Shown here piece by piece: positions 34,224 through 60,388 of a stretch of DNA of 64,000 bases. The stretch comes from a virus (lineage: Duplodnaviria > Caudoviricetes): positions 1 to 64,000 of the IMG/VR virus record IMGVR_UViG_3300028393_004061, one strand, 5' to 3'. Both the position numbers and the translations under genes were made by a program. Each line of letters opens with the position of its first letter. Within the stretch, counting starts at the first letter, position 1. The notes below the pieces were generated by a model. That model saw only the letters and a list, made by a program, of their open reading frames with translations, ran no database searches and was not told the origin of the DNA.

Positions 34224-34292
34224 CAATTACCTTATTTTAAAAATATATTTTAATAGACTGTTATTTACTTTATTTATGTCAGTATCTACAAA

Positions 34293-41150: not shown

Positions 41151-41852
41151 ATGATAATACAATCTTTATGGATAGGAAATAATTTAAGCAGAATGGAGGT
41201 TTCATCCATAAAGTCATTTTTATCTTTAGGATATACTTATCATTTGTATTCTTATTCACATATAAATAATGTTCCCAAAGGCGTAAAAATTTTAGATGGA
41301 AATGAAATTATAGATAGATCTGAAATTTTTACTTATAATCTTCCAGATCATCTAGGGGGCAATAGCTTTTCTGCATTTTCTAATTTTTTTAGATACAAAT
41401 TACTTTATGAAAAAGGTGGCTGGTGGGTTGATACTGATGTTTATGCTTTGAGACATTTGCCTTTAAATGAATATGTTTTGGCAAAAGAAAATGAAAATAA
41501 AATTTCTTCATGTATATTAAAATTTCCTCCAAAACATAAATTTAGTAAGATTTGTTTTGAAAAATGCAAAGAGAAAAATAAAGATAATTTAAAATGGGGA
41601 GAGACTGGACCATTATTGGTTACTGAGGTTGCCAAACAAATGAAATTAGAAACTTTTAAAGTACAAGAATTTTTTCCTATAAATTATGATGAGATTGAAA
41701 TGTTTTTTAAACCGATAAATATTCCAAGTTCTTATACGATTCATTTTTGGAATGAAATGTGGAGAAGAAAAAAAATATATAAAAATAAAGTATATGATAA
41801 AAAAACTTTGTATGAAAGACTTATTTCTACTTTTGAAACAAAACTTTTATAA
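41151..41852 (+). CDS. GT32-like (DxD sugar-binding) glycosyltransferase
   Basis: IQSLWIG; FSNFFRYKLLYEKGGWWVDTD; WGETGP.L; YTIHFWN. Confidence 0.85.
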   Translation: MIIQSLWIGNNLSRMEVSSIKSFLSLGYTYHLYSYSHINNVPKGVKILDGNEIIDRSEIFTYNLPDHLGGNSFSAFSNFFRYKLLYEKGGWWVDTDVYALRHLPLNEYVLAKENENKISSCILKFPPKHKFSKICFEKCKEKNKDNLKWGETGPLLVTEVAKQMKLETFKVQEFFPINYDEIEMFFKPINIPSSYTIHFWNEMWRRKKIYKNKVYDKKTLYERLISTFETKLL

Positions 41853-42401
41853 TAATAAATTTAAAAAACTTTTTTTACTTTTAATCTTTAGTAAAAAAGT
41901 ATAATCTTTTGTCCACAATAAATCATAAATGTTTTGTTGAATTACACGCATGACAGCTTTTTGTACTTGTTTTTTTTGCCAGTCATCTCCAAGTAATAAA
42001 CCGTCTTTTTTCAATAGCGGAAAACATTCTAGTAAATCCCAATACACGCTTTCCTCTTTGTGGCAAGCATCCAAATAAATAAAATCAATACTTTCTTTTT
42101 TAAAATATTTTTTTATATTTATAGATTTATCTTCTATGATATTTACTCTATTCAAAAAATCATATTTAAATAAATTATTTTTAAAATATTGTTTTGTTTT
42201 ATTTGGCCATATATCAAAACAATTCAATTTTATATATTCGTTTTTTTTAAGCATAAATATGGCAGATCTTCCTTTCCAACTTCCAATTTCTACTATAGTT
42301 GATTGAAGATTGTATGAGGCTAACAATTCACTAATTACATTTTCATGTTCTTCAACCATCCAATTTTCATGTAAATCATCATATTTATTTGTAATTGCCA
42401 T
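41847..42401 (-). CDS. Class I SAM methyltransferase (Methyltransf_24-like)
   Basis: IVEIGSWKGRS; IDFIYLDACH..V..D....LK..G...GDDW. Confidence 0.85.
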   Translation of the reverse strand: MAITNKYDDLHENWMVEEHENVISELLASYNLQSTIVEIGSWKGRSAIFMLKKNEYIKLNCFDIWPNKTKQYFKNNLFKYDFLNRVNIIEDKSINIKKYFKKESIDFIYLDACHKEESVYWDLLECFPLLKKDGLLLGDDWQKKQVQKAVMRVIQQNIYDLLWTKDYTFLLKIKSKKSFLNLLL

Positions 42402-43078
42402 TATATCTCTATTTTTTTGGGCAAATGTTTTTCTATAATTTTTTTATATTTATCTAAATTCAATTTTGGAATATTGTAAATAGACTTTGTAAGTTTATCA
42501 TGTTCTGTGAATGGTAAAATGTATTTATCTATCATTTTTTTATCATATGAATCTGCGTATTTATAAGAATTTTTTAAATTTATGCTATGATATCTTATAA
42601 GCCATAAATAATTTTCTGATAAATATGGTTTTAATTTCATGTATGCAAACTCATCATGATTCCAATTCGTTATACAATTTTTCCAACCAATATTTTCTTT
42701 ATGCTCACCAACTATTCCGTTGTCGCAAACAATATTTTCTGGTAATTCATCCGTAAGAAGTAATATTTTTCCAAAATCATGAAGAATTCCTGCCACAATG
42801 AATTCTTCATCAATAACTTTTTTATTTTCCATACTTTCTACAACTTGTAAAGTATGTATCCATTGATTCGTACAATAAAGTTCCTTATCGGTAGGATCGA
42901 TGCACAATGAAAGTTTTTCAATAAGACTCCATGGTTCGACTAATCCAAAAATTACATTTTTATATTTTTTGTTTAAATCTTCTATTTGATTGGCACTTTG
43001 ATTCCAATGAGCCTTTTTGATTTTTCTAGCATTGCCATCGAATTCCATCTGATTTAAATTATTGTTAGACTTTAGCAT
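42401..43078 (-). CDS. myo-inositol oxygenase (MIOX)-like HD-domain di-iron enzyme
   Basis: IDPTD, QWIHTLQ, LHDFGK, IVCDN, WNHDEF, IRYHS, EHDKLTK match the MIOX substrate and metal motifs in order. Confidence 0.75.
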   Translation of the reverse strand: MLKSNNNLNQMEFDGNARKIKKAHWNQSANQIEDLNKKYKNVIFGLVEPWSLIEKLSLCIDPTDKELYCTNQWIHTLQVVESMENKKVIDEEFIVAGILHDFGKILLLTDELPENIVCDNGIVGEHKENIGWKNCITNWNHDEFAYMKLKPYLSENYLWLIRYHSINLKNSYKYADSYDKKMIDKYILPFTEHDKLTKSIYNIPKLNLDKYKKIIEKHLPKKIEI

Positions 43079-43092: not shown

Positions 43093-43785
43093 TTATAAAA
43101 GAATATCTTTATATTGTTGGCCTTTAAGCCATATATCATTTTTATAATGAATAATTTTTACATTAGATGGAAAAACTTCTTTAAAATAGTAAAAATTATA
43201 AATATCAGTTGGTACTGTTAAAATTTTCAATTCATTATAATAAATTAAATCATTTCTCTGAAAATCTAAATTTAAAATAATATTTAATGCTAATTGATCA
43301 TTTTTATGTGTTTCAGACATTTTTATCCATTTAGATAAGAAGTTTATGGTTTGTTGTGTGTATTTGAAAAACATAACTCCTGCATTTATTTTTCCCATAA
43401 CGAATCTATGATCTTTTACAGGTTCATTTTTTAATTCTGATTCTCTACGAATTGTTAAACCTATGTCAAAATCTTTTTCTTTTATTTCGTTCAAAGGTTG
43501 ATATAGAACTGCGTCTGCATCAAGATAGACTATTGTTTTTTTATATTCCAGCAAAGCATCAAAAATAATTTGTGGTTTATGTATAGCCTTAGATTTCCAT
43601 GTGTTGTTTACATGGCAATAAAACCCATCTTTTTGAAATGTTTGATTTTTAACAATATATGACTTTCCATAACCAAGATTTCCAAGATCATAAATAACTG
43701 GTGTGTAATTTAATTTGATTGTATTTTTAATAGACAATTCAACAATTTTTTTAAATTTTTTATTAGCAGCAGTTAATATAATCAT
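43093..43785 (-). CDS. Nucleotide-diphospho-sugar transferase (GT77-like)
   Basis: KPQII..AL.....IVYLDAD; INAGVMFF; NDQ.ALN; KIIHY. Confidence 0.75.
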   Translation of the reverse strand: MIILTAANKKFKKIVELSIKNTIKLNYTPVIYDLGNLGYGKSYIVKNQTFQKDGFYCHVNNTWKSKAIHKPQIIFDALLEYKKTIVYLDADAVLYQPLNEIKEKDFDIGLTIRRESELKNEPVKDHRFVMGKINAGVMFFKYTQQTINFLSKWIKMSETHKNDQLALNIILNLDFQRNDLIYYNELKILTVPTDIYNFYYFKEVFPSNVKIIHYKNDIWLKGQQYKDILL

Positions 43786-43786: not shown

Positions 43787-44770
43787 TTATAAATTCTTTA
43801 TAAATTTTGCAAAATCATATGTTAATTTATTTATATTCCAAGATTCTATTAATTTATTTTTATTGTCTTCTAAAGTTTCATGAATATTTTCATAATTTGA
43901 TAAAACCATTTCTATTTTTTGCTCCAAGTCGCAAAAATCTGGCGAACATGGAATATATCTTTTTCCATTTTCAAATATATCAATAGGATAGCAAAAAACA
44001 TGATTACTATTTGGTTTAATCAAAACTGTTTTGGTATACATAGATTGAAAATCTCTATAATTCCATTCCCCCATACCCCATGGAGATAAGCAAATTTTAG
44101 ATTTATTTAATATGTCTTGATATGTTTTTTGATCAAGTGTTATTTTTCCATTTTTTTCTGCATACAAAAAAACATTATATTTTGATTTCAATTCGTTTAA
44201 TTTTTTTACAACTATATTACGATGCCAATTCAATATATTTGGTTTACTTATACCATCATAACAAATATTTCCAACAAACATCACATCATATTCTTTTTTA
44301 CATGATGGCAAATTTTTATAAGATAAAAATCTATCTTGTATTGATGTTGGTATTAGACATTTAATTTTTTTTAAATTGTCACAAGATATTTTTATATTTT
44401 GCTCTTCATTTTCACCTAATTTTGCATAATTATTTAGTAATTTGCAATGGTATCTTCCAGAATACACATCTGAATTATGCAACTTTTCATCTCTTAAAGT
44501 TGTTGTTTTTATTATAGATAAAACATCATTTCTATCAATTGCCTCCCTAACATGTTTATGATATAATATCGAAGAATCTGCTCTCTCTATAATAATTTTA
44601 GGTTGTTTGTTTTCAATATATTCAGGATATAATCTGCTATGTATTAGTAAAATGTCTGCATTATTTTTTGTAAAGCTTATTCCATAGTCCTCTAAATTAT
44701 ATTTAAGTATTGGCGAAGGCTCCGTTTTTTCTGTTCCAATATCACCCAAAATAGGATTTATTCGAATCAT
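43787..44770 (-). CDS. GT-B glycosyltransferase (Glyco_trans_1_2-like), paralog A
   Basis: YDVMFVG; SKICLSPWGMGEWNYRDF...VLIKP. Confidence 0.7.
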   Translation of the reverse strand: MIRINPILGDIGTEKTEPSPILKYNLEDYGISFTKNNADILLIHSRLYPEYIENKQPKIIIERADSSILYHKHVREAIDRNDVLSIIKTTTLRDEKLHNSDVYSGRYHCKLLNNYAKLGENEEQNIKISCDNLKKIKCLIPTSIQDRFLSYKNLPSCKKEYDVMFVGNICYDGISKPNILNWHRNIVVKKLNELKSKYNVFLYAEKNGKITLDQKTYQDILNKSKICLSPWGMGEWNYRDFQSMYTKTVLIKPNSNHVFCYPIDIFENGKRYIPCSPDFCDLEQKIEMVLSNYENIHETLEDNKNKLIESWNINKLTYDFAKFIKNL

Positions 44771-45486
44771 AATTTTATCCTATTTTTTAAAAACAAATTA
44801 AGCTCATTTTTTCTATATCCATGAAAATGTATTATTTTTGTTTTTGAATTAAAATATTCACATATTGGAGCATAAGTATTACCTATGCTCCAACTTGTAT
44901 TATATTCTTTATTTAAAATCAATCCATTTAATTTTATACATATAAATGTAAAAATTAATTCATCTAAAAATGTAATACTCAATAAGTTTTTCTTTTTTTC
45001 CCAATATTCTTTAAAAAGAGAAGAAATCAAATTTGAGTTTTGAAAAATACATCCTCCATTTAACTTTTCTCCTATTTCTGGCCATGCTGCAAAAGTCTTT
45101 TGGCCTAATTCTTTTGGCATAGCCATGCAGGTTTCTAAATCATCTATTTCATCTATATTCCTAATAATTAAACAATCTAGATCAAGAACTAGGCATCTCC
45201 CTAGATAATCAAAGGATTGAGATTTCATCCAACCAACCTTATGCAATACATCACTTTTGTAAGGTGGTTCATGATCAATTATCTTTACCACATCATATTT
45301 CCATATTTTGGGAATTTTTGTAGTCTCATCGGTCAATAATATTGGTTCCATTTTTGTTTCGCTTCTTTTATAAAAATCTAACCATATATTTAAAAGATTT
45401 TCCGAAACAGAGTGATGTTTTCTTTTAGTGTCTAACTTTTCATCAAAGTATATAATGCTTATTTTTGTTTTCATAATACAATCCAA
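44767..45486 (-). CDS. GT8-like glycosyltransferase
   Basis: LVLDLDC (DxD), NGGCI, DELI, IIHFHG. Confidence 0.65.
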   Translation of the reverse strand: MDCIMKTKISIIYFDEKLDTKRKHHSVSENLLNIWLDFYKRSETKMEPILLTDETTKIPKIWKYDVVKIIDHEPPYKSDVLHKVGWMKSQSFDYLGRCLVLDLDCLIIRNIDEIDDLETCMAMPKELGQKTFAAWPEIGEKLNGGCIFQNSNLISSLFKEYWEKKKNLLSITFLDELIFTFICIKLNGLILNKEYNTSWSIGNTYAPICEYFNSKTKIIHFHGYRKNELNLFLKNRIKL

Positions 45487-46213
45487 TAGTTTTTTCTATA
45501 AATGGCTTTGCCCAAAAAATGCAAAAAGGTATATTGACTTTTTTTATGTTTTTGTGAATATATAATATATTTTTTATATTTTTTATATTCCTTAAACATG
45601 ATATAGAACATATTGTTTTATTTCCCACATTTAAATTTTTTTTTATATGTATAAAATTTAGAAAATCAATATGATCATTTACTGATTGGCTTGTTTTGAA
45701 AACTTCTTCCTGTAGCTTAAGAACACCTTTTTTAGTCATGGCAAAATTATTTGAATGAAGTTTTCTTTTTTGTTTGAAATTGAACCATGGCTGACTAGGC
45801 AATTCTTCGTTTGGATACATGACACTTGTAATAAACTCACAAGAATCCCAATATATCAAATCGTAGGAAAAAATATCTTTCACATTCAACAAACTATCAA
45901 TTAAATCTGGTGAATATAAATCATCATCGTCTGTAAATAAAAAAATAGAATTTGAGTCACAATCTAATACTTCAGACCAAGTAAATAATTGTTTAGATGG
46001 AATCTTTTTCCAATTATCTAATGCTATATCAACTATTTTTTGTCTAAATTCAAAGTACTTATATAATAATTTTTTATCCCATTCTTTTATCAAGTCTAGA
46101 ATTATTTTCATATCCCATGGTCTATTTTGTTGTAAGAAATTTTCATAATTTAATTCTTTATAATTCACTTTATTGCTTACATAAGTATAAACATTGATAT
46201 TTTTATATGCCAT
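45443..46213 (-). CDS. Hypothetical GT-A-like protein
   Basis: FLFTDDDD acidic motif; start moved to 46213 (MAYKN) because the longer version overlaps the divergent gene. Confidence 0.55.
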   Translation of the reverse strand: MAYKNINVYTYVSNKVNYKELNYENFLQQNRPWDMKIILDLIKEWDKKLLYKYFEFRQKIVDIALDNWKKIPSKQLFTWSEVLDCDSNSIFLFTDDDDLYSPDLIDSLLNVKDIFSYDLIYWDSCEFITSVMYPNEELPSQPWFNFKQKRKLHSNNFAMTKKGVLKLQEEVFKTSQSVNDHIDFLNFIHIKKNLNVGNKTICSISCLRNIKNIKNILYIHKNIKKVNIPFCIFWAKPFIEKTIGLYYENKNKHYIL

Positions 46214-46226
46214 GATTTGATTATTT

Positions 46227-46778
46227 ATGATTATAAAACCAAAAAATAGAATTGAACTTTTAAACATTTTACCTAAAAATGGCATAGTTGCTGAAATAGG
46301 AGTTAAAAGTGGTCTGTTTGCCAAGCACATTTATGAGATTTCACAACCCAAAAAAATATTTTTGATAGATTGTTGGGAAAGTCAGAAAGGATCTTACGAA
46401 ATTGATTCTACAAATAATCAAAATCATGAAAAGTGCTATAAAGATGTATTAAATCATTTTGGTAAATATAAAAACGCAATAATCATAAAAGATTATTCGC
46501 ATAATGCTTGCAAATGCTTTGAAAATAACTTTTTTGATTGGGTTTATATTGATGCCAATCATACTTATGATGCAATTTTTAACGATATAAATAATTGGTG
46601 GCCACTGATTAAAAATAATGGGTACATATGTGGACATGATTATTTTACAGATTATTGGGTCGATGTTGAATTGGCAGTTAATAACTTTTTAAAATTAAAT
46701 AAAAAAAATCTATATGCTTTAACCTTATCGAAATATCCTAGTTGGTGCATTAAGAAAAATGAAATTAAATTAATATGA
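46227..46778 (+). CDS. Class I SAM methyltransferase (Methyltransf_24-like)
   Basis: VAEIGVKSG; IDCW; FDWVYIDANHTY...D...W...K..G.I.GHDY. Confidence 0.9.
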   Translation: MIIKPKNRIELLNILPKNGIVAEIGVKSGLFAKHIYEISQPKKIFLIDCWESQKGSYEIDSTNNQNHEKCYKDVLNHFGKYKNAIIIKDYSHNACKCFENNFFDWVYIDANHTYDAIFNDINNWWPLIKNNGYICGHDYFTDYWVDVELAVNNFLKLNKKNLYALTLSKYPSWCIKKNEIKLI

Positions 46779-47488
46779 AAGAAATTAGAATAATAGGCAT
46801 GATGCGATCTGGACATCATGCAATTGCAAACTGGATTTTCAATCAAGCCAAGGAAACTGTTTTTTTTATAAATAGGATTCAAGGAAAGAAAATTCACTAT
46901 ACAAATATAGATTTTACCTTTTGGAAACCAGACTATTTTATCTACAATTTTGAAGATGAAAAAATTGAACAGGTTATTGAGGCAATATCAAGAATTAAGT
47001 TTTTTTATGACTTAGAAGAAAACTATAAATATATAGTAGTAATTAGAGATCCATATAATTTATTTGCAAGTAGAGCAAAAAAAGAAGAAGATCTTAAAAG
47101 TGTTGGCAAGAATACAACTTCTATGGTTGGAAATTTAACTTCCGAAGCAATTGAATTGTGGAAAGAATTAGCCTATGAATATTTAGATAATAAATCCATA
47201 CTTAAAAACAAAATATGTGTAAATTATAATTTATGGTCATCATGTAAAAAATATAGACAAAAATTAGCTAAAAAAATTGGAATTTATTTTACAGATGAAG
47301 GATTTAGAGAGGTACCAGTTTTTGGCAATGGAAGTAGTTTTGATTTCATGAAATACAATGGTAATGCACAAAATATGAAAATACATGAAAGATATAAGGA
47401 ATACTCAAACTGTTCTTGGTTCAAATCTATATTCGATAAAGAGACTAAAGAATTAAGTCAACATATATTTAAAATATCTCCATTTTAA
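46775..47488 (+). CDS. Sulfotransferase-like protein
   Basis: GMMRSGHHAI 5'-PSB loop; VIRDPYN..ASR 3'-PB motif. Confidence 0.7.
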   Translation: MKEIRIIGMMRSGHHAIANWIFNQAKETVFFINRIQGKKIHYTNIDFTFWKPDYFIYNFEDEKIEQVIEAISRIKFFYDLEENYKYIVVIRDPYNLFASRAKKEEDLKSVGKNTTSMVGNLTSEAIELWKELAYEYLDNKSILKNKICVNYNLWSSCKKYRQKLAKKIGIYFTDEGFREVPVFGNGSSFDFMKYNGNAQNMKIHERYKEYSNCSWFKSIFDKETKELSQHIFKISPF

Positions 47489-47505: not shown

Positions 47506-48486
47506 TTAATTTTTTTGTAAATATTGATTGTATGACTCTATAATTTCTTTTGCCCAAATTTCAGCCAACCAATTTTCATTCCATGAAGATAAAATTTTAT
47601 TTCTAGCTTGGACTCTCATGAATTCTAAATTTTTCCAATTATTTAAAATATAATAAATTTTATCCATTAAATCTGAACAATCAACATTAAAAGGAACATA
47701 ATAATTATTTTTAAAAATATTTGGTAATGAAACAACATGGTCACTATTTGGCTTTAGAAGAATTGCACCACAATAAATTGCATCAAAATCTCTATAACAC
47801 ATTTCTCCCCATCCCCAAGGAGAAATACAAATTTTCGAATTCAACAAAGAATTTATCCAATCTTTTCTTTTTAAAATTTTATTTACAAGTTTACTACAAT
47901 TTAATTGTTCTAATTTTTGACTTATAGATTTTCTATGACAAAAAATTACAGGGGAATCTTGCCACATATTGCAAAGATAATTTACATCTATTTTTCTTTC
48001 TTGTTTGTAATTTATTTTTTGTCTTCTTACTTCATTGAATAATTCTTGACAACAAAGAGGAACCATACATTTTATTTTATTTAATGCTTTTTCAGACATC
48101 GAATTAGTAAAAACCAATGAATCATTCAATTTAAAAGCATTTTTGATTAATTCAAAATGATATCTATCTGTTCCGCAATTATTTATTTTTTTTGGATCAC
48201 ATATAGATGTTTTAAATATTCCCAAAACATTTTTTTCTTCGGCCATTTCTCTTACACATTCATTATGCACTATGCAAGAATCTGCTCTTTCTAAAATAAT
48301 CGTAGGTTTTTTTACTGATAATGCTTTTTTATGATGTGATATAAGTATGTCATAATTAAAGTCGCTAATAGTAATTCCATATTGTGCAAATTTTTCTTTA
48401 CATCTTAGTAAAGGAATTATTTGATCTATTGCTTCTTTTCTTTCTTCCAAATTAAATTTTACTTTTATATTTTTATATTTCAACAT
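47506..48486 (-). CDS. GT-B glycosyltransferase, paralog B of 43787-44770
   Basis: Shares IxERADS, KC.(I/V)P, SKIC.SPWG.GE..YRDF, KPNS.HV. Confidence 0.7.
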   Translation of the reverse strand: MLKYKNIKVKFNLEERKEAIDQIIPLLRCKEKFAQYGITISDFNYDILISHHKKALSVKKPTIILERADSCIVHNECVREMAEEKNVLGIFKTSICDPKKINNCGTDRYHFELIKNAFKLNDSLVFTNSMSEKALNKIKCMVPLCCQELFNEVRRQKINYKQERKIDVNYLCNMWQDSPVIFCHRKSISQKLEQLNCSKLVNKILKRKDWINSLLNSKICISPWGWGEMCYRDFDAIYCGAILLKPNSDHVVSLPNIFKNNYYVPFNVDCSDLMDKIYYILNNWKNLEFMRVQARNKILSSWNENWLAEIWAKEIIESYNQYLQKN

Positions 48487-48494: not shown

Positions 48495-49340
48495 TTATAA
48501 CAAATTAATATAATTTTTTCCATGTTTGTTTAAAAACTCTTTTAAGCTTACTTGGTTTGATAAATTGCTTATATTTAATTCTTCTGCCGAACTCAAAATA
48601 GAATCGTGTATTGGTAAATTCCATTTTTTGCAAAATTTTACACCATTGTATAATCCCATCAACCTAACTAAGCTTCTTGAATCGGAATAATTATAATCAA
48701 TATAATTGTGATGCAAATGAAGCTCGTTGCACTCAATTGGAATAAAATTATATTTTTGATTGTAAGCACTCATGTAAAAATCAATGTCTGGAAATCCCCA
48801 ACCAACAAAACTACCATCAAATCCACCACTCTTGTAATATCCTTTTTTGGTAAAAGCAACACAACCAGACATAGGATTTTTTCTTCTTATGGCATCTATA
48901 GGATTTGAATATACTCTTTGATCTTCTATTACAAAATGTTTATTTTCTTTAAAATTATCACGCACACTTTTTATTGTTTTAAAATCATGATCTTTCAAAA
49001 ATTGATATAGATACTTTGGAAAAACAAATGATTTGTCATCAACTTTTGAATAAATTAATTCAAAGTAGTTTTTAGGCAAAATTCTATCTGAATCAATATA
49101 AATGATTTTATCATTATTTGATTTTTCTATACCAGCCTCAATAGAATTTTTCCAACAATAAAAATTATGATTTCTTTTGACCTCTACATATTCATAATCA
49201 CAATTAAAATTAATTTTACCATCAACACTTATTATAATTTGACATGATTCAAATCCATCCATCTCTTTTAAAAAATCTAATGTTTGCAAAAGGTTTCTTT
49301 TTCTGTCAGTAGAATATAAAATTAAAATGCTATATTTCAT
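48495..49340 (-). CDS. GT2/GT7C-like glycosyltransferase
   Basis: IYIDSD; GGFDGSFVGWGFPDIDF (GT7 GWGxED-like); LHLHH. Confidence 0.75.
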   Translation of the reverse strand: MKYSILILYSTDRKRNLLQTLDFLKEMDGFESCQIIISVDGKINFNCDYEYVEVKRNHNFYCWKNSIEAGIEKSNNDKIIYIDSDRILPKNYFELIYSKVDDKSFVFPKYLYQFLKDHDFKTIKSVRDNFKENKHFVIEDQRVYSNPIDAIRRKNPMSGCVAFTKKGYYKSGGFDGSFVGWGFPDIDFYMSAYNQKYNFIPIECNELHLHHNYIDYNYSDSRSLVRLMGLYNGVKFCKKWNLPIHDSILSSAEELNISNLSNQVSLKEFLNKHGKNYINLL

Positions 49341-49409: not shown

Positions 49410-50093
49410 ATGAAACCTTTAGTAAGATGGACAATTGGATTTGACAAAGAAGATTCTTATAAAATTTTAAAATTATCAATTTCTAATTTTTATAAACTTT
49501 ATGGCGACACATTTGATTATGCGGTTTGTTACAATAAATGTAATGTTGAAAAAATAAAAATGGATATCGATCTAATAACAATAGATCAAACAAAATATAT
49601 GGAAACTTTAAAAGTTTTACCATTTTCGACCTCTTGGAAGTTATATCCTCCAAGAATAAGACTTACACAACATGAAATATTTTTAGATAATGATGTTGTT
49701 ATTTATAAAAAAATTCCCTTAATCGATGAGTTTCTTAAAAGCAAAAAAATAACATTTGCTACAGAAGCAAAAAAAAGAAATTATGGAAGTTTTGATAAAG
49801 CCATACCAGAAAAAACACTTATAAATACAGGTGTATTTGGTTTGCCTCCTTATTTTGACATTAAAAGTAAAATAAATGAAATGTTAAAAGACGGATGGAA
49901 TAATTGGTATGACGAACAAGGATTAATAGCATCAATATTATTTAAAGAAAATAACTTTAAAATAATATCAATTAATGATATTTTCGTATGTTTCGATGAA
50001 TTAAAATTTGGTCAATATGGAATACATTTTGTTGGTTTGAATATAAATGACAATAAATATTGGACAAAACACTTCAAAAATTTCAAACTATAA
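49410..50093 (+). CDS. GT-A-like glycosyltransferase
   Basis: WKL..PR....EIFLDND; INTG.FG; DEQG; GIHF.G. Confidence 0.65.
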   Translation: MKPLVRWTIGFDKEDSYKILKLSISNFYKLYGDTFDYAVCYNKCNVEKIKMDIDLITIDQTKYMETLKVLPFSTSWKLYPPRIRLTQHEIFLDNDVVIYKKIPLIDEFLKSKKITFATEAKKRNYGSFDKAIPEKTLINTGVFGLPPYFDIKSKINEMLKDGWNNWYDEQGLIASILFKENNFKIISINDIFVCFDELKFGQYGIHFVGLNINDNKYWTKHFKNFKL

Positions 50094-50705
50094 AATAGTC
50101 AAAATGTTTTTTTTAATTTTTTTAGAGTTTAGTTTTAAATCGTGGAATCCAAATGATTTATTGTCTTCGTAATTGCCATGTTCTGTTGAAAACCTATAAG
50201 CAATATCAGAAGGAGCATACTTACAACCATGATTCTCAAATTCCTTACGCAAAATATCAGAAAGCATAACATCATCTGGGTTGTCTACTTCTAGATCTTT
50301 TGTAATTATTTTTTGTGCTTCTAAAAACTTTTTACTTTTTAAACAGAATCCACCATTTCCAACAAGATCGTTTAACCAAGGCCATGGCGCACCAATATAA
50401 TCATAATCAAAAAATGTATCATCCCAAGCATTTGGATTTACAACAAAACCATCCCATTGAACAGTAAGACAAAAATCAGAATCTATTTCATATGGCAAAT
50501 TCTTCACAATGAAATTATCATAATCTCTTTTTGAATTTATTTTTTCGATTAACTTGTAATTCATGTCAACTGGTTTGTGAGTGAATATAATCGTATCATA
50601 AAAATCACAATACTTATTGCACATTTTTAATGCATATATGCTTTCTACTATTTTACTAGAAGATACAGAAATACATGTGACATTTTTTAAATTAATTTTA
50701 CTCAT
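50088..50705 (-). CDS. DUF5672-like protein
   Basis: LTVQWDGFV.NP..W...F..YDYIGAPW; VGNGGF.L.S; FGFH. Confidence 0.75.
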   Translation of the reverse strand: MSKINLKNVTCISVSSSKIVESIYALKMCNKYCDFYDTIIFTHKPVDMNYKLIEKINSKRDYDNFIVKNLPYEIDSDFCLTVQWDGFVVNPNAWDDTFFDYDYIGAPWPWLNDLVGNGGFCLKSKKFLEAQKIITKDLEVDNPDDVMLSDILRKEFENHGCKYAPSDIAYRFSTEHGNYEDNKSFGFHDLKLNSKKIKKNILTIL

Positions 50706-50742: not shown

Positions 50743-52158
50743 CTACAAATTATAATATCCCAAGATATGTTTTATTTCATCGGTATTAAATTCTTCTGTA
50801 TCAACATATGGTTTATCGTTTTTTTCATCGACTTGCAATAAAATTAGATTTTGCTTTGCAGATGAATCTTTTGGAGTAACCCAACTTTGTGGATGACCGC
50901 TTGGTTTCCACCAAGTTTGAGGATCTTTTACTGAATTTTTTTCTAGTTGGTTCATCAATTGGTAAAAATCAGATATAACTAATGAATATTCGATATTATT
51001 TTCTAAAGCTAAGTTTTTCTCTTCTTTTGGATCTTTTTCAATATCGTACAATTCAACAATATTATTTTTTAAATGTATTTTGTAATTATCTTTTCTTATA
51101 ACAGCATATGCTGCTATTTTTCTCTTACCGTCAATATATCTTTCAAAATTACCAAAAAACAAATCATAAATGATTGTTTTTCCTTTAGGACTTTGTTGGT
51201 ACTCAATAAATTTAGATATATCAGAACCATCTATTTTATCATCATGATTTACGCCAATTAATTTGCATAATGTCGGAACAAAATCAACGGCATGATACAA
51301 GCCATTATTTATCAATCCATTATTCCAAGGTTTATAATTTATAAAATTTATTGCTTTAATGCCACCCTCATAGTTAGTGGTTTTTCCTCCACGATATATG
51401 CCATTATCACTACCAGCATTTAAAAAGCCACCATTATCACTTGTAAACCATATTAGTGTATCTTCCCTAAGATTATTGTCATCTAAAGCAACCAATATTT
51501 TCCCTATGCAATCATCTAAATGTGTGACCATAGACAACAAATCTAGCCTTTTACCATTTAGCTTATCTTTATAAACTTCTTTGTATTTTGATGGGTATTG
51601 CAATGGAGTGTGAGGGGAATTGTATGCTATATAATAAAAGAAAGGTTTTGTTTCGGTTTTTAAATTTTCTACAATCTTATTCGTAAGACAATCAGCATTA
51701 TGACCCTCGCAATATGTTGGTTCATTATTTTCTAACAAATCATGAATTGCTCCGTTTTTATTTGTCCAATGATCTATATTTCCATAATAATTTCCATAAT
51801 GATAATCAAAGCCACGATTAATTGGTATGTATTTGACATCTGAATGACCTAAATTCCACTTTCCAAACATTTTTGTCGTATAATTTGCATCTTTGAAATA
51901 TTGTGGCAAAAACTTTGCATCTGAATTTATAGAATTTGTATTCCATGGCCAAATAACCCTTTGCATTCCCAATCGATAACAGTACATCCCAGTCATGAGT
52001 GCTGCTCTAGTAGGAGAACAACTACTCTGAACATAAAAATTTTCTAATCTTGTTCCTTCTAAAGCCAACTTGTCAATGTTTGGAGTTATAGCATCTGCAT
52101 TTTTATATCCAACATCACCATAACCCAAGTCATCTGCGATAATAATAATAATATTCAT
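50743..52158 (-). CDS. Cys-type S1 sulfatase (arylsulfatase B-like), no signal peptide
   Basis: IADDLGYGD, TPNID.LA..G, CSPTR (CxPxR), GKWNLG, SPHTP, SDNGG, GGK..NYEGG. Confidence 0.9.
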   Translation of the reverse strand: MNIIIIIADDLGYGDVGYKNADAITPNIDKLALEGTRLENFYVQSSCSPTRAALMTGMYCYRLGMQRVIWPWNTNSINSDAKFLPQYFKDANYTTKMFGKWNLGHSDVKYIPINRGFDYHYGNYYGNIDHWTNKNGAIHDLLENNEPTYCEGHNADCLTNKIVENLKTETKPFFYYIAYNSPHTPLQYPSKYKEVYKDKLNGKRLDLLSMVTHLDDCIGKILVALDDNNLREDTLIWFTSDNGGFLNAGSDNGIYRGGKTTNYEGGIKAINFINYKPWNNGLINNGLYHAVDFVPTLCKLIGVNHDDKIDGSDISKFIEYQQSPKGKTIIYDLFFGNFERYIDGKRKIAAYAVIRKDNYKIHLKNNIVELYDIEKDPKEEKNLALENNIEYSLVISDFYQLMNQLEKNSVKDPQTWWKPSGHPQSWVTPKDSSAKQNLILLQVDEKNDKPYVDTEEFNTDEIKHILGYYNL

Positions 52159-52201: not shown

Positions 52202-52978
52202 ATGAAGGATTTATTGATAGGTTCTGTTTATTCAACAAGCGATAGAAACAACTATTGGTATAAACTACAAACAGATTTTATAAAAAAAAACACAACAAAT
52301 GTAGAATATGATTTTTCTATTTTTTTTAATTGTAAAAAAGAAGAATACGAAGAAGAACAAATATTTGAAAAAAACATTATAGCAAGAGGATTAAATGGTT
52401 ATTACTTATCTGAAAATCATAAAAATGGATTAAACCATATCATAAAATATGCAAAAGAAAATAAATATAAGAATTTGCTTTTGCTAGATAGTGATTGCTT
52501 TCCTATTAAAGAAAAATGGTTTAATGAACTATTGTGGCTAACAAAAGATGTACATTATGCTGCTCCCATTAGATTTGAAAATCTTGATAATTTCCCACAT
52601 CCATGTTGCTTTTTTATAAAAAACATTACTGATAGCAATGTATTTTTTTTATTCCAAGAAATAACCACTTTGGTTGGACAAAAACTTAACGAATGCATCC
52701 CAAATATTGATAATTTTTATCCATTGATTAGATCAAATTACAATAACCCAGACCCAATTATGTGTGGAATATATAAAGATATGTTTTATCATCATGGCTG
52801 TGGAAGTAGAATTACAAAATCATCTAGATGTAATGATTTAAATTATTATGGAATGCTCAATAGTTTAAATAGAATCAATAAACATGAAAACGCTCTATAT
52901 GAAAAACTTATAAACCATCCAGAAGAATTTATTTCAAGTCTCATGCGTAATAATCAAAATAAAGAAAATTTAATATGA
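52202..52978 (+). CDS. Hypothetical GT-A-like protein
   Basis: LLLLDSDCFP (DxD); FYHHGCGS. Confidence 0.55.
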   Translation: MKDLLIGSVYSTSDRNNYWYKLQTDFIKKNTTNVEYDFSIFFNCKKEEYEEEQIFEKNIIARGLNGYYLSENHKNGLNHIIKYAKENKYKNLLLLDSDCFPIKEKWFNELLWLTKDVHYAAPIRFENLDNFPHPCCFFIKNITDSNVFFLFQEITTLVGQKLNECIPNIDNFYPLIRSNYNNPDPIMCGIYKDMFYHHGCGSRITKSSRCNDLNYYGMLNSLNRINKHENALYEKLINHPEEFISSLMRNNQNKENLI

Positions 52979-54402
52979 CAGTACTATTAGGATTTTATCT
53001 TGGTCATGACAGCAATATCGCAGTTTCTATAAATGGAAAAATAAAATATAGAAAGTCAGAAAGATATTTTCAAAAAAAACACCATAAAGCAAATTTACAA
53101 TTCGTATTTGACACTTTGAATGATTGGGGAATTGATAAAGTTGACTATTGTGCATACACAGATGGAAATAGACAAAATTTAGGTATATGTCAAAAAAATG
53201 AATTTTTTTGCGATGGATCATTGAAACAATTTAAAAGCTATTGTCTAGATCATCATTATGCTCATGCTTTAAGTCTTTGGCCTGTAATTGACACAGAAAA
53301 AATAAACTATTCCGTATCAATCGATGGAAGAGGAGATTGGAATAGAAGCATGATGGTAATAAAAAACCCAGCTAGAAATCCAACAATAGTAAAGTCGCAA
53401 GATTCCCTTGGCATGGGATATGAGTTTTATCTAATGGGTAAAATGCTTGGGTTTACAGGAATGGAATATGACTTTGCTGGTAAACTTATGGGATTACAAT
53501 CATATTCAGAAGATGATATTGTTAAATTTGGTTTGCCAAAATTGAAAAATACAAGTTATAAAACAAGCCTTCTGTATGGAGATAACAATGCTTATTCTAC
53601 CTACAAAGAATGGCATGAGTATTGGTGGAATTATGTAAAAAATGTATTTGATTTTCCTAAAGATTCTATCATTTCATATACTGGAGGATGCGCACAAAAT
53701 TCTGTTTATAACTATAGATTAAAAAAAATGTTTGAAAATATACATATACCACCACATGCTTATGATGGTGGACTTTCTTTAGGATGTTTGGAATTCTTAA
53801 GAATAAAATATGATTTAAATCAATTTGAAAATACTGATTTTCCATTTTGGCAAGACGATTCAATAGATGAACAACCAACATTAAAAACAATAAAATATGC
53901 AGCAGAATGCATCTCCAGAGGCAAAATAATAGGTTGGATGCAAGGATCTGGCGAACTCGGCCCTAGATCTTTAGGAAATAGATCGATTTTAATGAATGCT
54001 ATAAATCCAAAAAACAAAGATATATTAAACGATAGAGTTAAAAAAAGAGAAATGTGGAGACCATATGCTGGTTCAATACTCTCAGACTTTACCACACAAT
54101 ATTTCGACATGGATAAAAGTGAATATATGTTATATGCCTGTAATGTCACAAATGGGAACATACCAGCGGTAACACATGTTGACAACACTTGCAGAATGCA
54201 AACCGTTAAAGGTGGAATATTCGCAGAGCTTATTTATCAATACTACAAATTGACAGGAATTCCATTAGTTTTAAATACTTCTTTAAATGTTATGGGAAAA
54301 CCAATAAAATCCAAAATAGAAAACCCAATAGAACTATTGCAACAATGTAATCTTGATTACCTTTTTGTTGGAAATAAAATATATCACCAATTAAAACTAT
54401 GA
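52975..54402 (+). CDS. O-carbamoyltransferase (NodU/CmcH/TobZ family)
   Basis: GHDS, DHH.AHA, IDG.GD, GKLMGL, GG.AQN, GELGPRSLGNRSIL, KKRE.WRP, HVD.T.R.QTV, LNTSLN. Confidence 0.9.
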   Translation: MTVLLGFYLGHDSNIAVSINGKIKYRKSERYFQKKHHKANLQFVFDTLNDWGIDKVDYCAYTDGNRQNLGICQKNEFFCDGSLKQFKSYCLDHHYAHALSLWPVIDTEKINYSVSIDGRGDWNRSMMVIKNPARNPTIVKSQDSLGMGYEFYLMGKMLGFTGMEYDFAGKLMGLQSYSEDDIVKFGLPKLKNTSYKTSLLYGDNNAYSTYKEWHEYWWNYVKNVFDFPKDSIISYTGGCAQNSVYNYRLKKMFENIHIPPHAYDGGLSLGCLEFLRIKYDLNQFENTDFPFWQDDSIDEQPTLKTIKYAAECISRGKIIGWMQGSGELGPRSLGNRSILMNAINPKNKDILNDRVKKREMWRPYAGSILSDFTTQYFDMDKSEYMLYACNVTNGNIPAVTHVDNTCRMQTVKGGIFAELIYQYYKLTGIPLVLNTSLNVMGKPIKSKIENPIELLQQCNLDYLFVGNKIYHQLKL

Positions 54403-55109
54403 TACCAGTTATAATAAATAATAGAAACAGATTGACTCATTTTAAAAGTCTTATAAATTGGCTTCAAAAAATAAATTGTAGAATTATTGTTCTCGATAAT
54501 GATTCTACATATGAACCATTAATTGAATATTATTCAAATATATCCAATGATGTTGAGATTTGTTTTCTCGGACAAAACTTAGGACATCAAGCTTTGTATA
54601 GTTGGAAATTACATCAAAAATTTAATGAAAAGTTTTTCATATACACCGATTCCGATGTTGTTCCAACCGATCTATGCCCATTGAATGTTCTTGATTATCT
54701 TGTAGAAAATAAAAGCAAATATAGAGATTATCACAAAATAGGACTTTCACTTAAAACTGACGACATACCAGATCACTACCAACATAAAAAATTAGTTTTA
54801 AAATGGGAAAACGATTTCAAGAAAAAAAACTTAAATGATTTTTATATTTGCCCAGTAGACACTACATTTGCCATCTATGAAACAAAAAGCTTGGCATCTG
54901 AAAACCATATTTTATCGCCATGCCTAAGAACAAAAATACCATACGAAGCAAGACATATGCCTTGGTACAATGATACCAATAAATTAAATGATGAAGAAGC
55001 ATATTACATATCTCATGCAAATGCAAGGTTTCAAAACATACATGGAAAAAACATACCAGTTGGAATGTGGACTCAACTAGATAAGAATAAAGTTATAAAA
55101 GTTTTTTAA
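54399..55109 (+). CDS. GT2-family glycosyltransferase
   Basis: IVLDNDST, YTDSD, VDTTFA. Confidence 0.75.
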   Translation: MIPVIINNRNRLTHFKSLINWLQKINCRIIVLDNDSTYEPLIEYYSNISNDVEICFLGQNLGHQALYSWKLHQKFNEKFFIYTDSDVVPTDLCPLNVLDYLVENKSKYRDYHKIGLSLKTDDIPDHYQHKKLVLKWENDFKKKNLNDFYICPVDTTFAIYETKSLASENHILSPCLRTKIPYEARHMPWYNDTNKLNDEEAYYISHANARFQNIHGKNIPVGMWTQLDKNKVIKVF

Positions 55110-55926: not shown

Positions 55927-56560
55927 AAAAAAATTGTTTATTCTCCAACTCTTTTGGGCCATTCGCACCATATTTTGTCACATCGACACTTTTATAATAA
56001 TCGACAATTCTCTGAAATCCTGTTCCATATACATCCATTTTTCTAGTTATATTAAATGATGTTGCGTTGGGATAAAACGAAGGAACGCAATCAAAAAAAT
56101 ATCCTTCTATTCTAATTCCTTGTAATTTACTTATAAATTTAATATCACGAAGCTTTTCTTTTATACATATCAAATGATTGGTTTGATATGCACCCATGTT
56201 TGTCCATCTCTTCTCATGAGCCAAAATAACTTTATGTCCTGATACTATTTTTTGAGACAGCTTTTTGAAGTTACTTCCACATGACATTGTATCATGTAAC
56301 AGAAAAACATATTCAGATCCTCGATATTCAATTTCAGATAAATGAATTAAGGCAGAATATTCATATGCGTTATAAGGAACGCAATAAGTCTCAATGTTTT
56401 GATATTGAATAACTTCATTACATTTGCAAATTACAATTATTATTTCATTATCTAAAACTCCACAATTGCTTAAACTTTTTATGATCACAGGCAAAGTTTT
56501 TAAATAATATATTGAATTTGAAGCAACAAGATATTTTATCTTTTTTTGATTCTTTAACAT
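55916..56560 (-). CDS. Hypothetical protein, possibly GT-A-like
   Basis: YE..AL....YVFLLHDT, a pattern common in glycan loci. Confidence 0.5.
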   Translation of the reverse strand: MLKNQKKIKYLVASNSIYYLKTLPVIIKSLSNCGVLDNEIIIVICKCNEVIQYQNIETYCVPYNAYEYSALIHLSEIEYRGSEYVFLLHDTMSCGSNFKKLSQKIVSGHKVILAHEKRWTNMGAYQTNHLICIKEKLRDIKFISKLQGIRIEGYFFDCVPSFYPNATSFNITRKMDVYGTGFQRIVDYYKSVDVTKYGANGPKELENKQFFYEP

Positions 56561-60284: not shown

Positions 60285-60377
60285 AACTAATCAATAATAT
60301 TGCGAAATAAAATTTTAGTTTTTATTGTGGATAGTAAATAATATAACAAGGATGTTTTATTTTGGCATGGATGCCAA

Positions 60378-60383: not shown

Positions 60384-60388
60384 TTTTC

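What the first reader, a model, noticed from the sequence alone, without database searches (positions are those of the whole stretch)
42401..43078. myo-inositol oxygenase homologue in a phage
All motifs expected of MIOX appear in order: substrate loop DPTD (cf. DxSD), H in QWIH, HD plus K in LHDFGK, D in IVCDN, H in WNHDEF, H in IRYHS, D in EHDK. MIOX is mainly known from eukaryotes and some bacteria and converts inositol + O2 to glucuronate. As a viral auxiliary gene inside a GT island it could supply the uronic acid. No glucuronokinase or pyrophosphorylase is visible in this window.
Basis: partly seen in the sequence, partly recalled or inferred. Interest (0 to 1): 0.7.

Follow-up and report, generated by a model that had tools for sequence, protein, structure and literature searches.

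The report
Divergent inositol-oxygenase-like enzyme in phage glycan module
A freshwater tailed phage carries a real but highly divergent relative of myo-inositol oxygenase that belongs to an unstudied branch of this iron-enzyme family, found in phages, bacteria and some eukaryotes inside sugar-chain-building gene clusters, so it more likely oxidises a sugar on the glycan pathway than free inositol.

Summary
Window 42401-43078 (minus strand) is a 225-aa ORF that passes Pfam MIOX (57.6 bits, cut-off 25). It keeps all six iron ligands. Its model (pLDDT 94) superposes on mouse MIOX (Z 25.9) far better than on PhnZ/TmpB (Z 10-12) or any HD hydrolase (Z 7.3 or less).

It is not a canonical MIOX. It is about 20% identical to mouse and human MIOX and lies in a separate clade (SH-aLRT 100). 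It lacks the N-terminal lid and a ~30-residue segment, and several canonical-invariant pocket residues differ.

The clade sits in glycan loci. Of 59 well-flanked homologous loci, 44 carry a UDP-galactopyranose mutase of one of two distant types, often with GT2, DUF707 or Methyltransf_24. In five genomes checked, the best UGM match lies beside this gene, and it is the only match in four. Rotifer and other eukaryotic proteins fuse DUF707 to this domain. No sugar kinase or pyrophosphorylase appeared in the genes annotated.

In the phage it is a core gene of a ~12-gene glycosyltransferase module shared with three related low-GC contigs.

Best reading (about 0.55): an O2-dependent di-iron oxygenase that tailors a diol-bearing sugar or cyclitol in glycan synthesis. 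Classical inositol-to-glucuronate supply is a minority rival (about 0.2). First-reader notes of this scan on other genomes record MIOX-family genes beside glycosyltransferases.

The parts
42401..43078 (-). MIOX-like HD-domain di-iron oxygenase, 225 aa (the finding)
   Evidence: PF05153 57.6 bits. Six Fe ligands H75, H100, D101, H141, H164, D194 plus K104, D61, D64, S165 and K198 align to mouse MIOX. AF2 pLDDT 94. 2huo Foldseek TM 0.86 and VIA Z 25.9.
41847..42401 (-). Methyltransf_24 SAM-dependent methyltransferase; its start overlaps the MIOX-like stop (TAATG)
   Evidence: PF13578 E 1.8e-18. Overlap read. Orthologue directly after the MIOX-like gene in L057/L058. The same family lies directly upstream of the MIOX-like gene in 8 bacterial loci.
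43093..43785 (-). GT-A glycosyltransferase of the Nucleotid_trans (GT77-like) type, immediately upstream and co-directional
   Evidence: PF03407 E 2.4e-8. Orthologues in L001 (adjacent to the MIOX-like gene), L057 and L085.
43787..44770 (-). GT-B-like protein (weak RXYLT1_C match), same operon
   Evidence: orthologues in L001 at 47% and L057 at 32%.
44767..45486 (-). Conserved module protein with no Pfam family, same operon
   Evidence: No Pfam hit. Orthologues in L057 (55%), L085 (46%) and L001 (43%).
45443..46330 (-). Conserved module protein with no Pfam family, first gene of the minus-strand run
   Evidence: Orthologue in L057 at 39%.
41151..41852 (+). GT32-like glycosyltransferase (Gb3_synth / Gly_transf_sug), convergent with the operon
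   Evidence: PF04572 E 1.6e-11 and PF04488 E 1.1e-6. Orthologues in L057/L058 (51%) and L001 (44%).
46227..46778 (+). Second Methyltransf_24 methyltransferase
   Evidence: PF13578 E 6.3e-15.
46775..47488 (+). Conserved module protein with no clear family
   Evidence: Orthologue in L057 at 52%.
47506..48486 (-). GT-B-like paralogue (RXYLT1_C / Glyco_trans_1_2, weak)
   Evidence: L057 orthologue at 48%.
48495..49340 (-). GT2 / Glyco_transf_7C-like glycosyltransferase
   Evidence: Orthologues in L057 and L001.
49410..50093 (+). Conserved module protein with no Pfam family
   Evidence: Orthologues in L001 and L057.
50088..50705 (-). DUF5672 protein (GT-like)
   Evidence: PF18922 E 1.3e-16.
50743..52158 (-). 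Sulfatase
   Evidence: PF00884 E 4.6e-50. Orthologue next to UGM in L057/L058 at 42%.
52975..54402 (+). NodU/CmcH-type carbamoyltransferase
   Evidence: phrog_1601 E 2e-121.
54399..55109 (+). GT2 glycosyltransferase
   Evidence: PF00535 E 3.4e-5.

Best explanation
The ORF encodes a MIOX-fold HD-domain enzyme with a complete H...HD...H...H...D di-iron site. It belongs to a divergent, uncharacterised clade of Pfam PF05153. That clade is a component of glycan-biosynthesis loci, not of inositol catabolism. In the phage it is the fifth gene of a six-gene minus-strand run (46330 down to 41847) that lies inside a ~12-gene glycosyltransferase module.

Inferred mechanism: like MIOX, it binds a vicinal diol of a polyhydroxylated substrate to one iron. 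It then uses O2 at the other iron for a four-electron oxidation with C-C cleavage, without an external reductant, giving an aldehyde and/or carboxylate. The substrate is most likely a sugar or cyclitol moiety of the glycan pathway (nucleotide-, lipid- or glycan-linked). The leading candidate is the exocyclic C5-C6 diol of galactofuranose. Free myo-inositol is less likely. The product would then be used or further modified by the adjacent GT-A transferase and the translationally coupled Methyltransf_24.

Shown: family, fold, ligand set, clade separation, gene neighbourhoods, domain fusions and module conservation. Inferred: oxygenase chemistry, the nature of the substrate, and the order of steps.
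For: Family and fold:
- PF05153 is above its cut-off.
- AF2 pLDDT is 94.
- Mouse MIOX gives TM 0.86 and Z 25.9 over 215 residues.
- The next-best matches are the other HD oxygenases PhnZ and TmpB (Z 10-12). Hydrolases score Z 7.3 or less.
- The Fe ligands and the D85/K127 and D88/K257 pairs are invariant across the clade.

Separate clade:
- SH-aLRT is 100, with a long branch to canonical MIOX.
- Identity to mouse and human MIOX is about 20% (19-21% in the structural alignments).

Open or altered pocket:
- The model starts at mouse residue 32.
- There is a ~30-residue gap between D142 and H194.
- Canonical-invariant S87/P89/D90, G141/T143/F144 and G193 are replaced.

Context:
- 44 of 59 well-flanked loci have a UGM within 6 kb. 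21 are classical GLF and 23 are a eukaryote-type UGM-like gene placed immediately downstream.
- These loci span Pseudomonadota, Actinomycetota and at least five candidate phyla.
- In five genomes checked, the best GLF match lies beside the MIOX-like gene, and in four it is the only match.
- Other recurrent neighbours are GT2 (22 loci), DUF707 (18), Methyltransf_24 (8), PMT_2 GT-C (7), a Wzx-type flippase, GT4 and a sulfotransferase.
- DUF707-MIOX-like and DUF3431-MIOX-like fusion proteins exist, including in Rotaria rotifers.

Phage module:
- 12 window genes have orthologues in L057/L058, 9 in L001 and 3 in L085. The MIOX-like gene is present in all of them.
- L057/L058 add a UGM 1.9 kb away.
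- The MIOX-like stop overlaps the methyltransferase start as TAATG.
Against: No enzyme of this clade has been assayed, and I found no paper on it.

The phage-like clade keeps the D142 equivalent (D119) and the polar residues of MIOX that PMC2584100 ties to inositol binding (D85/K127, D88/K257), so a cyclitol or myo-inositol itself cannot be excluded.

The window has no UGM (tblastn). The galactofuranose idea therefore needs a host-supplied precursor, or a gene elsewhere in the unseen rest of the genome.

Di-iron HD sites also occur in hydrolases (PMC8177086).

Neighbour ORFs were called with a crude ORF finder and clustered by BLAST, so the counts are approximate.
Confidence: 0.55

Rival explanations
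1. It is a true myo-inositol oxygenase. It converts free myo-inositol and O2 to D-glucuronate, and the phage uses it as an auxiliary metabolic gene to raise the uronic-acid supply for its glycosyltransferases.
For: PF05153 is above its cut-off. The best and only strong PDB matches are MIOX. All six ligands are kept, and D85, D88, K127, D142, S221 and K257 equivalents are kept in the phage-like clade. Databases name relatives 'inositol oxygenase'.
Against: It lies in a separate clade at about 20% identity to mouse and human MIOX. The N-terminal lid (mouse 1-31) and the D92/R39 lid salt bridge are missing. A ~30-residue segment is absent. Canonical-invariant pocket residues are replaced, and D142 is not kept in the bacterial or fused members. 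No glucuronokinase, UDP-sugar pyrophosphorylase or uronate-pathway gene appears among the ORFs scanned in 39.5-62.6 kb of the window or among the annotated conserved neighbour clusters of 59 loci. Fusion to a GT-like domain fits a glycan-bound or activated substrate better.
Confidence: 0.2
2. It is a non-oxidative HD-domain phosphohydrolase. For example, it might hydrolyse a nucleotide, nucleotide-sugar by-product or polyprenyl-diphosphate in support of the glycosyltransferases, having kept the MIOX scaffold.
For: Most HD-domain proteins are hydrolases, and some use di-iron sites (PMC8177086). There are weak sub-threshold HD and HDOD Pfam hits. JGI labels some relatives 'predicted HD phosphohydrolase'.
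Against: PF01966 scores 16.6 bits, below its cut-off of 22. Structural similarity to hydrolases is only Z 7.3 or less, against 25.9 for MIOX and 10-12 for the oxygenases PhnZ and TmpB. The MIOX-specific D85/K127 and D88/K257 pairs are invariant.
Confidence: 0.1
3. It is a PhnZ/TmpB-like C-P bond-cleaving oxygenase acting on a hydroxy-phosphonate, for example a phosphonate decoration of a glycan.
For: PhnZ and TmpB are the second-best structural matches. There is a weak TIGR03276 hit, E 0.004.
Against: TIGR03276 scores 16.8 bits against a cut-off of 214.6. TM is about 0.45 and Z 10-12, against 0.86 and 25.9 for MIOX. No Fe/2OG PhnY/TmpA-like partner and no phosphonate-synthesis family appeared among the Pfam hits for the island or among the annotated conserved neighbours.
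Confidence: 0.03

Closest known systems
Mammalian myo-inositol oxygenase (mouse 2HUO, human 2IBN; EC 1.13.99.1; Pfam PF05153)
   Same: Same all-helical HD fold (Z 25.9, 215 residues aligned, rmsd 2.5). Same six di-iron ligands. Same K127, D85, D88, S221 and K257 equivalents, and D142 is kept in the phage-like clade. It probably shares the reductant-independent, mixed-valent di-iron, four-electron diol-cleaving chemistry (inference from PMC8177086).
   Different: About 20% identity. 225 aa against 285 aa. The N-terminal lid (mouse 1-31) and the D92/R39 pair have no counterpart. About 30 residues are missing between D142 and H194. SDPD becomes TDxx, GDTF becomes CDN, and WGHDEY becomes WNHDEF. 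It forms a separate clade. Its context is glycan synthesis (UGM, GTs, methyltransferase), not inositol catabolism or the UDP-GlcA salvage route.
PhnZ and TmpB, HD-domain mixed-valent di-iron oxygenases of phosphonate degradation
   Same: Same superfamily and ligand motif. They are the next-best structural matches (Z 10-12). Like them, this enzyme seems to work as a tailoring step within a multi-enzyme pathway.
   Different: Much lower structural similarity. TIGR03276 is far below its cut-off. No Fe/2OG hydroxylase partner was seen. The polar pocket residues are of the MIOX type.
MIOX-family proteins of giant viruses (e.g. UniProt A0A5J6VKA5, 'Myo-inositol oxygenase', Megaviridae environmental sample, 578 aa)
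   Same: It is the only viral protein in BFVD with this fold (TM 0.81, 24% identity). An ESM-Atlas MIOX cluster is 61% viral, mostly Nucleocytoviricota.
   Different: Those are viruses of eukaryotes, and the listed protein is a longer, multi-domain form. No record among 50,697 GenBank phage genomes matches the query. Only one IMG/VR contig does.
Plant myo-inositol oxidation route to UDP-glucuronate (MIOX, glucuronokinase, UDP-sugar pyrophosphorylase)
   Same: An oxygenase of the same Pfam family that feeds glycan synthesis (PMC3123461, abstract seen).
   Different: The kinase and pyrophosphorylase that define that route did not appear among the ORFs scanned in the window or among the annotated conserved neighbours of the clade.

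Membership tests
MIOX family in the broad sense (Pfam PF05153) | Score above the Pfam gathering threshold | tested here: met
   57.6 bits against a cut-off of 25, E 1.9e-15, in two stretches.
MIOX family in the broad sense (Pfam PF05153) | HD-domain di-iron ligand set H...HD...H...H...D | tested here: met
   H75, H100, D101, H141, H164 and D194 align with mouse H98, H123, D124, H194, H220 and D253. They are invariant or nearly so in the family alignments.
MIOX family in the broad sense (Pfam PF05153) | MIOX three-dimensional fold | tested here: met
   AF2 pLDDT 94. 2huo gives TMq 0.86, rmsd 2.1 and Z 25.9 over 215 residues.
Canonical myo-inositol oxygenase (EC 1.13.99.1) | Substrate-lid salt bridges D85/K127, D88/K257 and D92/R39 (as summarised in PMC2584100) | tested here: inconclusive
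   The first two pairs are present (D61/K104, D64/K198). The third is absent: Y68 sits at the D92 position and G15 at the R39 position.
Canonical myo-inositol oxygenase (EC 1.13.99.1) | N-terminal lid segment covering the active site (mouse residues about 1-31) | tested here: not met
   The structural alignment starts at model residue 9, which matches mouse residue 32. The protein has only 225 aa. Bacterial relatives have unrelated N-terminal extensions.
Canonical myo-inositol oxygenase (EC 1.13.99.1) | Residues invariant in canonical MIOX around the pocket (S87, P89, D90, G141, D142, T143, F144, G193) | tested here: not met
   In a comparison of 9 canonical and 71 clade sequences, only D142 is kept, and only in the phage-like clade. 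The other positions differ.
Canonical myo-inositol oxygenase (EC 1.13.99.1) | Groups with characterised MIOX in a phylogeny | tested here: not met
   The clade is separated from the canonical representatives by a long branch with SH-aLRT 100. This was a quick IQ-TREE run with LG+G4 on 75 rows, using only four canonical rows.
Canonical myo-inositol oxygenase (EC 1.13.99.1) | Pathway context: glucuronokinase/UDP-sugar pyrophosphorylase or uronate catabolism genes | tested here: not met
   No such family among the ORFs scanned in window 39.5-62.6 kb or among the annotated conserved neighbour clusters of 59 well-flanked loci. The rest of the phage genome is not available.
Canonical myo-inositol oxygenase (EC 1.13.99.1) | Catalyses myo-inositol + O2 to D-glucuronate | not testable with these tools
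   Needs an enzyme assay.
PhnZ/TmpB phosphonate oxygenases (TIGR03276) | Family model score, and a partner Fe/2OG hydroxylase | tested here: not met
   TIGR03276 scores 16.8 bits against a cut-off of 214.6. No 2OG oxygenase family among the Pfam hits for the island. Z is 10-12 only.
Generic HD phosphohydrolases (PF01966) | Score above the Pfam gathering threshold | tested here: not met
   16.6 bits against a cut-off of 22. Solved hydrolases score Z 7.3 or less.

The most novel reading that the evidence does not exclude
This clade is a new kind of HD-domain di-iron oxygenase that acts on furanose sugars. It would cleave or oxidise the exocyclic C5-C6 diol of (UDP- or glycan-bound) galactofuranose made by the co-located mutase. 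The product would be a pentofuranose aldehyde or uronate plus formate or formaldehyde. This would be an O2-dependent route to L-arabinofuranose-like or furanuronic residues. Freshwater huge phages would have captured it, with GT77-like and methyltransferase partners, to build an unusual glycan on the host surface or on the virion.
Probability: 0.17. Interest if true: 0.85.

Novelty: new variant of a known kind. Interest (0 to 1): 0.62.

Why it matters
A 2025 paper I could read states that only three Fe-utilising HD-domain oxygenases were known before it added a fourth: MIOX, PhnZ and TmpB, then the mono-iron SmaX (PMC12186529).

Here a whole clade of MIOX-fold proteins is tied to glycan assembly by three lines of evidence:
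- conserved gene order in many bacterial phyla,
- two distantly related types of pyranose-furanose mutase as partners,
- fusions to a GT-like domain in eukaryotes.

The clade has 229 representatives at 50% identity. It occurs in bacteria of at least seven phyla, in freshwater phages and in eukaryotes such as rotifers.

This points to an undescribed oxidative sugar-tailoring reaction. It also offers cheap test objects: a 225-aa phage enzyme and a cultured carrier, Tateyamaria omphalii.

For phage biology, it adds an oxygenase to the repertoire of phage-encoded glycan modules. I found no MIOX-family gene in 50,697 GenBank phage genomes.

It also warns that automatic 'inositol oxygenase' labels on these proteins, and metabolic inferences drawn from them, are probably wrong for this clade.

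Tried and rejected
Tools and collections that gave nothing:
Contexts of the closest homologues (P0001-P0004) could not be fetched, and I used the search for related loci instead.
- GenBank phages: tblastn with the protein and megablast with 14 kb of the island found nothing.
- IMG/VR: a single-sequence scan found nothing. Two profile scans found only L001.
- PHROGs has no family for the protein.
- NCBIfam gives only a far sub-threshold Phn-HD hit.
- No whole genome is held for the window, so absence of ugd, glf, ino1 or kinase genes holds only for this window.
- No UGM in the window by tblastn with the L057 enzyme (best E 1.6).

Comparisons that failed:
- The phage Nucleotid_trans GT has no detectable sequence similarity to bacterial or eukaryotic DUF707. 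I therefore do not claim they are orthologues, only that both have nucleotide-diphospho-sugar-transferase-type Pfam matches.
- The sigma-70 promoter and terminator scan of 41-47 kb was no better than shuffles.

Sequencing runs:
- No RNA holder was listed, so nothing can be said about expression.

Literature:
- Searches found no paper on MIOX in phages, on MIOX with UGM, or on this clade.
- DUF707 is mentioned only as a putative plant or LOS-locus GT.
- The primary MIOX structure papers and the TmpB paper are not held. Residue roles rest on PMC2584100 and PMC8177086.

Methods caveat:
- Several apparent conserved 'neighbour' clusters (clusters 1, 4, 7 and 9) are antisense shadow ORFs of high-GC genes and were discarded.
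Full report
**1. The observation**

Window 42401-43078 holds a 225-aa ORF on the minus strand. It starts at an ATG preceded by a purine-rich AAAGAGAAAAA. Its stop overlaps the start of the next gene as TAATG.

Pfam places it in PF05153 (MIOX) at 57.6 bits against a cut-off of 25. The HD and HDOD models are only sub-threshold. A sequence search of the PDB finds only mouse and human MIOX (E 8e-8 and 2e-7).

- The six iron ligands: H75=H98, H100=H123, D101=D124, H141=H194, H164=H220, D194=D253.
- Polar pocket residues: D61=D85, T63=S87, D64=D88, K104=K127, D119=D142, S165=S221, K198=K257.

These positions are invariant or nearly so in alignments of 18 and 24 relatives.

**2. Fold**

An AlphaFold2 model built on the 18-sequence alignment has mean pLDDT 94.

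| Structure | Foldseek | VIA-align |
|---|---|---|
| Mouse MIOX 2huo | E 4e-10, TM 0.86, rmsd 2.1 | Z 25.9, 215 residues aligned |
| PhnZ, TmpB | TM about 0.45 | Z 10-12 |
| HD hydrolases | not significant (E 0.45 or more, TM 0.31 or less) | Z 7.3 or less |

That criterion is not met.

**3. It is not a canonical MIOX**

- Identity to mouse and human MIOX is about 20% (19-21% in the structural alignments).
- The structural alignment begins at model residue 9, which matches mouse residue 32. The N-terminal lid of MIOX therefore has no counterpart.
- HMMER splits the match in two, with about 30 mouse residues (about 147-175) unmatched between D142 and H194.
- PMC2584100 summarises three salt bridges that close the lid over inositol: D85/K127, D88/K257 and D92/R39. 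The first two are kept and the third is not.
- I compared 9 canonical MIOX sequences with 71 clade members. Residues invariant in canonical enzymes are replaced: S87, P89, D90, G141, T143, F144 and the G of WGHDEY.
- D142 is kept only in the phage-like subclade. It is M in most bacterial members and S in the most common fused forms.
- In a quick maximum-likelihood tree the short proteins form one clade, separated from canonical MIOX by a long branch (SH-aLRT 100).
- An exhaustive HMMER search of 1.8 billion cluster representatives finds 229 relatives at E 0.001 or better. Canonical-type MIOX sequences (P0208, P0223, P0225, P0230) appear only near the weak end of the list, at about E 1e-8 to 1e-11.

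**4. What the clade is associated with**

I fetched 136 loci: 55 from GTDB species genomes, 80 metagenome contigs and 1 IMG/VR contig. I clustered all flanking ORFs by BLAST and annotated cluster representatives with Pfam, NCBIfam and the PDB.

Of the 59 loci with at least 3 kb on both sides, 44 have a UDP-galactopyranose mutase within 6 kb. Two architectures recur.

Architecture A, mostly Pseudomonadota:
- a classical GLF mutase, divergent, about 190 bp upstream (TIGR00031, 339 bits);
- a DUF707 gene, convergent, about 30 bp downstream.

Architecture B, in Actinomycetota, Eremiobacterota, Omnitrophota, Binatota, Rokubacteria and Vulcanimicrobiota:
- a co-directional operon of the MIOX-like gene, a 425-445-aa flavoprotein and a GT2;
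- the flavoprotein's closest solved relatives are eukaryote-type UGMs (3uka, E 9e-12).

Further points:
- The clade is linked to two only distantly related mutase lineages. This argues for a functional link to pyranose-furanose mutase chemistry rather than simple inheritance of one locus.
- In five genomes checked whole, the best GLF match lies beside the MIOX-like gene. In four of them it is the only match.
- Other recurrent neighbours are a Methyltransf_24 directly upstream (8 loci), a PMT_2 GT-C transferase directly downstream (7 loci), a Wzx-type flippase, a GT4, sulfotransferases and SDRs.
- Loci without a mutase also show transferases. In the cultured Tateyamaria omphalii, a GT2-TPR gene overlaps the start of the MIOX-like gene.
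- Longer relatives are fusions: DUF707 plus MIOX-like (P0143, P0158, P0161, P0181) and DUF3431 plus MIOX-like (P0156). The first group includes proteins of the bdelloid rotifers Rotaria magnacalcarata and R. socialis, and a EukProt entry.
- No kinase or nucleotidyltransferase family appeared among the conserved neighbours I annotated.

**5. The phage context**

The window encodes a baseplate gp6/J-like protein (phrog_219, E 6.5e-27). Its best relative among GenBank phages is a 595-kb uncultured 'huge phage' (43% identity). G+C is 24-37%. The DNA occurs in several freshwater and lake metagenomes from different years and studies.

The MIOX-like gene is the fifth of six tightly packed minus-strand genes (46330 down to 41847). 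In order they are:
1. an unknown protein,
2. an unknown protein,
3. a GT-B-like protein,
4. a Nucleotid_trans (GT77-like) GT-A,
5. the MIOX-like gene,
6. a Methyltransf_24.

This run sits inside an island that also encodes:
- a GT32-like transferase, two GT2-type transferases and a second GT-B-like protein;
- a DUF5672 protein and a second Methyltransf_24;
- a sulfatase, a carbamoyltransferase and a radical SAM/SPASM protein;
- a sulfotransferase further on.

Conservation of the module:
- Twelve of these genes have orthologues (32-59% identity) in two low-GC metagenome contigs (L057/L058).
- Nine have orthologues in the IMG/VR contig L001, and three in L085.
- The MIOX-like gene is present in all four.
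- In L057/L058 it is again followed directly by the methyltransferase and lies 1.9 kb from a classical UGM and a sulfatase.
- L058 also carries a nucleotidyltransferase beside the module, like the PolyA_pol-head gene at 39580-41052 here.

In the tree the phage-like sequences form one clade (SH-aLRT 80), sister (88) to the eukaryote-type fused proteins. The window itself has no UGM.

**6. How it most likely works**

Shown: a MIOX-fold protein with an intact di-iron site and MIOX-type polar pocket residues. It lacks the lid and one surface segment. It is conserved as a core gene of glycan-assembly loci and is physically fused to a GT-like domain in some lineages.

From established knowledge of the family (PMC8177086, PMC12186529): HD-domain mixed-valent di-iron oxygenases bind the substrate's hydroxyl(s) to one iron and activate O2 at the other. 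They carry out a four-electron C-C or C-P cleavage next to a hydroxyl without external reductant. MIOX does this on a vicinal diol.

Inference: this clade performs the same kind of reaction on a diol-bearing sugar or cyclitol that is part of the glycan pathway. The missing lid is consistent with a bulkier substrate, such as a nucleotide-, lipid- or glycan-linked one. The strong mutase association makes the flexible exocyclic C5-C6 diol of galactofuranose the most attractive candidate. Cleavage would give a pentofuranose aldehyde or uronate plus a C1 fragment. SDRs occur in some loci, and the coupled methyltransferase or the GT77-like transferase could act next.

I rate the statements as follows:

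| Statement | Probability |
|---|---|
| Glycan-tailoring oxygenase with a substrate other than free inositol | about 0.55 |
| The specific galactofuranose version | about 0.17 |
| Classical inositol-to-glucuronate function | about 0.2 |
| Phosphohydrolase role | about 0.1 |
| PhnZ-like role | about 0.03 |

**7. Comparison with what is known, and novelty**

Membership in PF05153 and the MIOX fold is met. Membership among canonical inositol oxygenases fails on the lid, on several invariant residues, on phylogeny and on pathway context. Activity is untestable here.

I found no paper describing this clade, MIOX in phages, or a MIOX-UGM link.

Viral MIOX-family proteins are on record only for giant viruses of eukaryotes (BFVD hit A0A5J6VKA5; ESM-Atlas cluster). 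None of 50,697 GenBank phage genomes matches the query.

First-reader notes of this scan on other genomes record a GT2/FAD-oxidoreductase/MIOX-like operon (e1-2338768) and MIOX genes beside GT-A genes in other viruses (e1-5472580, e1-5472576). I recovered the first arrangement independently in 23 well-flanked loci. I did not check the other two.

I class the finding as a new variant of a known kind: a known fold and probable chemistry, with a new clade, context and probable substrate.

**8. Limits**

- Neighbour genes were called with a simple longest-ORF rule and grouped by BLAST. Antisense shadow ORFs were recognised and dropped by hand, so counts are approximate.
- The tree was a quick search with a simple model and only four canonical outgroups.
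- The rest of the phage genome and its host are unknown.
- No expression data were found.

Noticed in passing
window 50743-52158 (-), 55093-55971 (-), 60362-61090 (+): The phage encodes a sulfatase (PF00884, E 4.6e-50), a radical SAM/SPASM protein that could be a sulfatase-maturing enzyme, and a Sulfotransfer_2 sulfotransferase. Sulfatase and sulfotransferase genes recur in the related loci L057, L001 and L085. This suggests that the module's glycan is both sulfated and desulfated.
   Followed up: partly
window 23610-34226 (-): A single ORF of 3,538 aa lies in the structural-gene region downstream of the baseplate genes. It was not analysed.
   Followed up: no
window 4251-5508, inside ORF 3581-6454 (-): A tandem array of about 36 copies of a 33-bp unit (89% matches) encodes an 11-residue repeat in a 957-aa protein. 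It explains the local G+C rise, the GC skew of +0.32 and a long antisense ORF at 4173-5621.
   Followed up: partly
window 39580-41052 (+): A 490-aa protein with a PolyA_pol (CCA-adding/poly(A) polymerase) head domain flanks the glycan island, yet no tRNA gene was found in the window. A nucleotidyltransferase (phrog_388) also flanks the module in L058.
   Followed up: partly
window 57049-57462 (-): A small 137-aa protein carries a bacterial RNA polymerase alpha-subunit C-terminal domain (PF03118, E 1.1e-14). It is a possible transcription take-over factor.
   Followed up: no
window 58943-59551 (+) and 61907-62587 (-): A ClpP-family protease and a Peptidase_C39 family protease are encoded close together.
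   Followed up: no
proteins P0143, P0158, P0161, P0181, P0156 (not in the window): Eukaryotic proteins fuse a DUF707 or DUF3431 domain to the MIOX-like domain. They include proteins of the bdelloid rotifers Rotaria magnacalcarata and R. socialis. UniRef calls them 'Inositol oxygenase'.
   Followed up: partly
L001 18437-20017 (-): The related IMG/VR contig encodes a 526-aa protein that combines a Mom-like/GNAT domain with a TnsA-like endonuclease N-terminal domain.
   Followed up: no
bacterial homologues in alignment A1 (e.g. P0049, P0052, P0065, P0066): Bacterial members carry a 30-70-residue basic N-terminal extension with a shared 'LGYE(F/I)RRID'-like motif. The extension is absent from the phage-like proteins. 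It might be a membrane or partner anchor.
   Followed up: no
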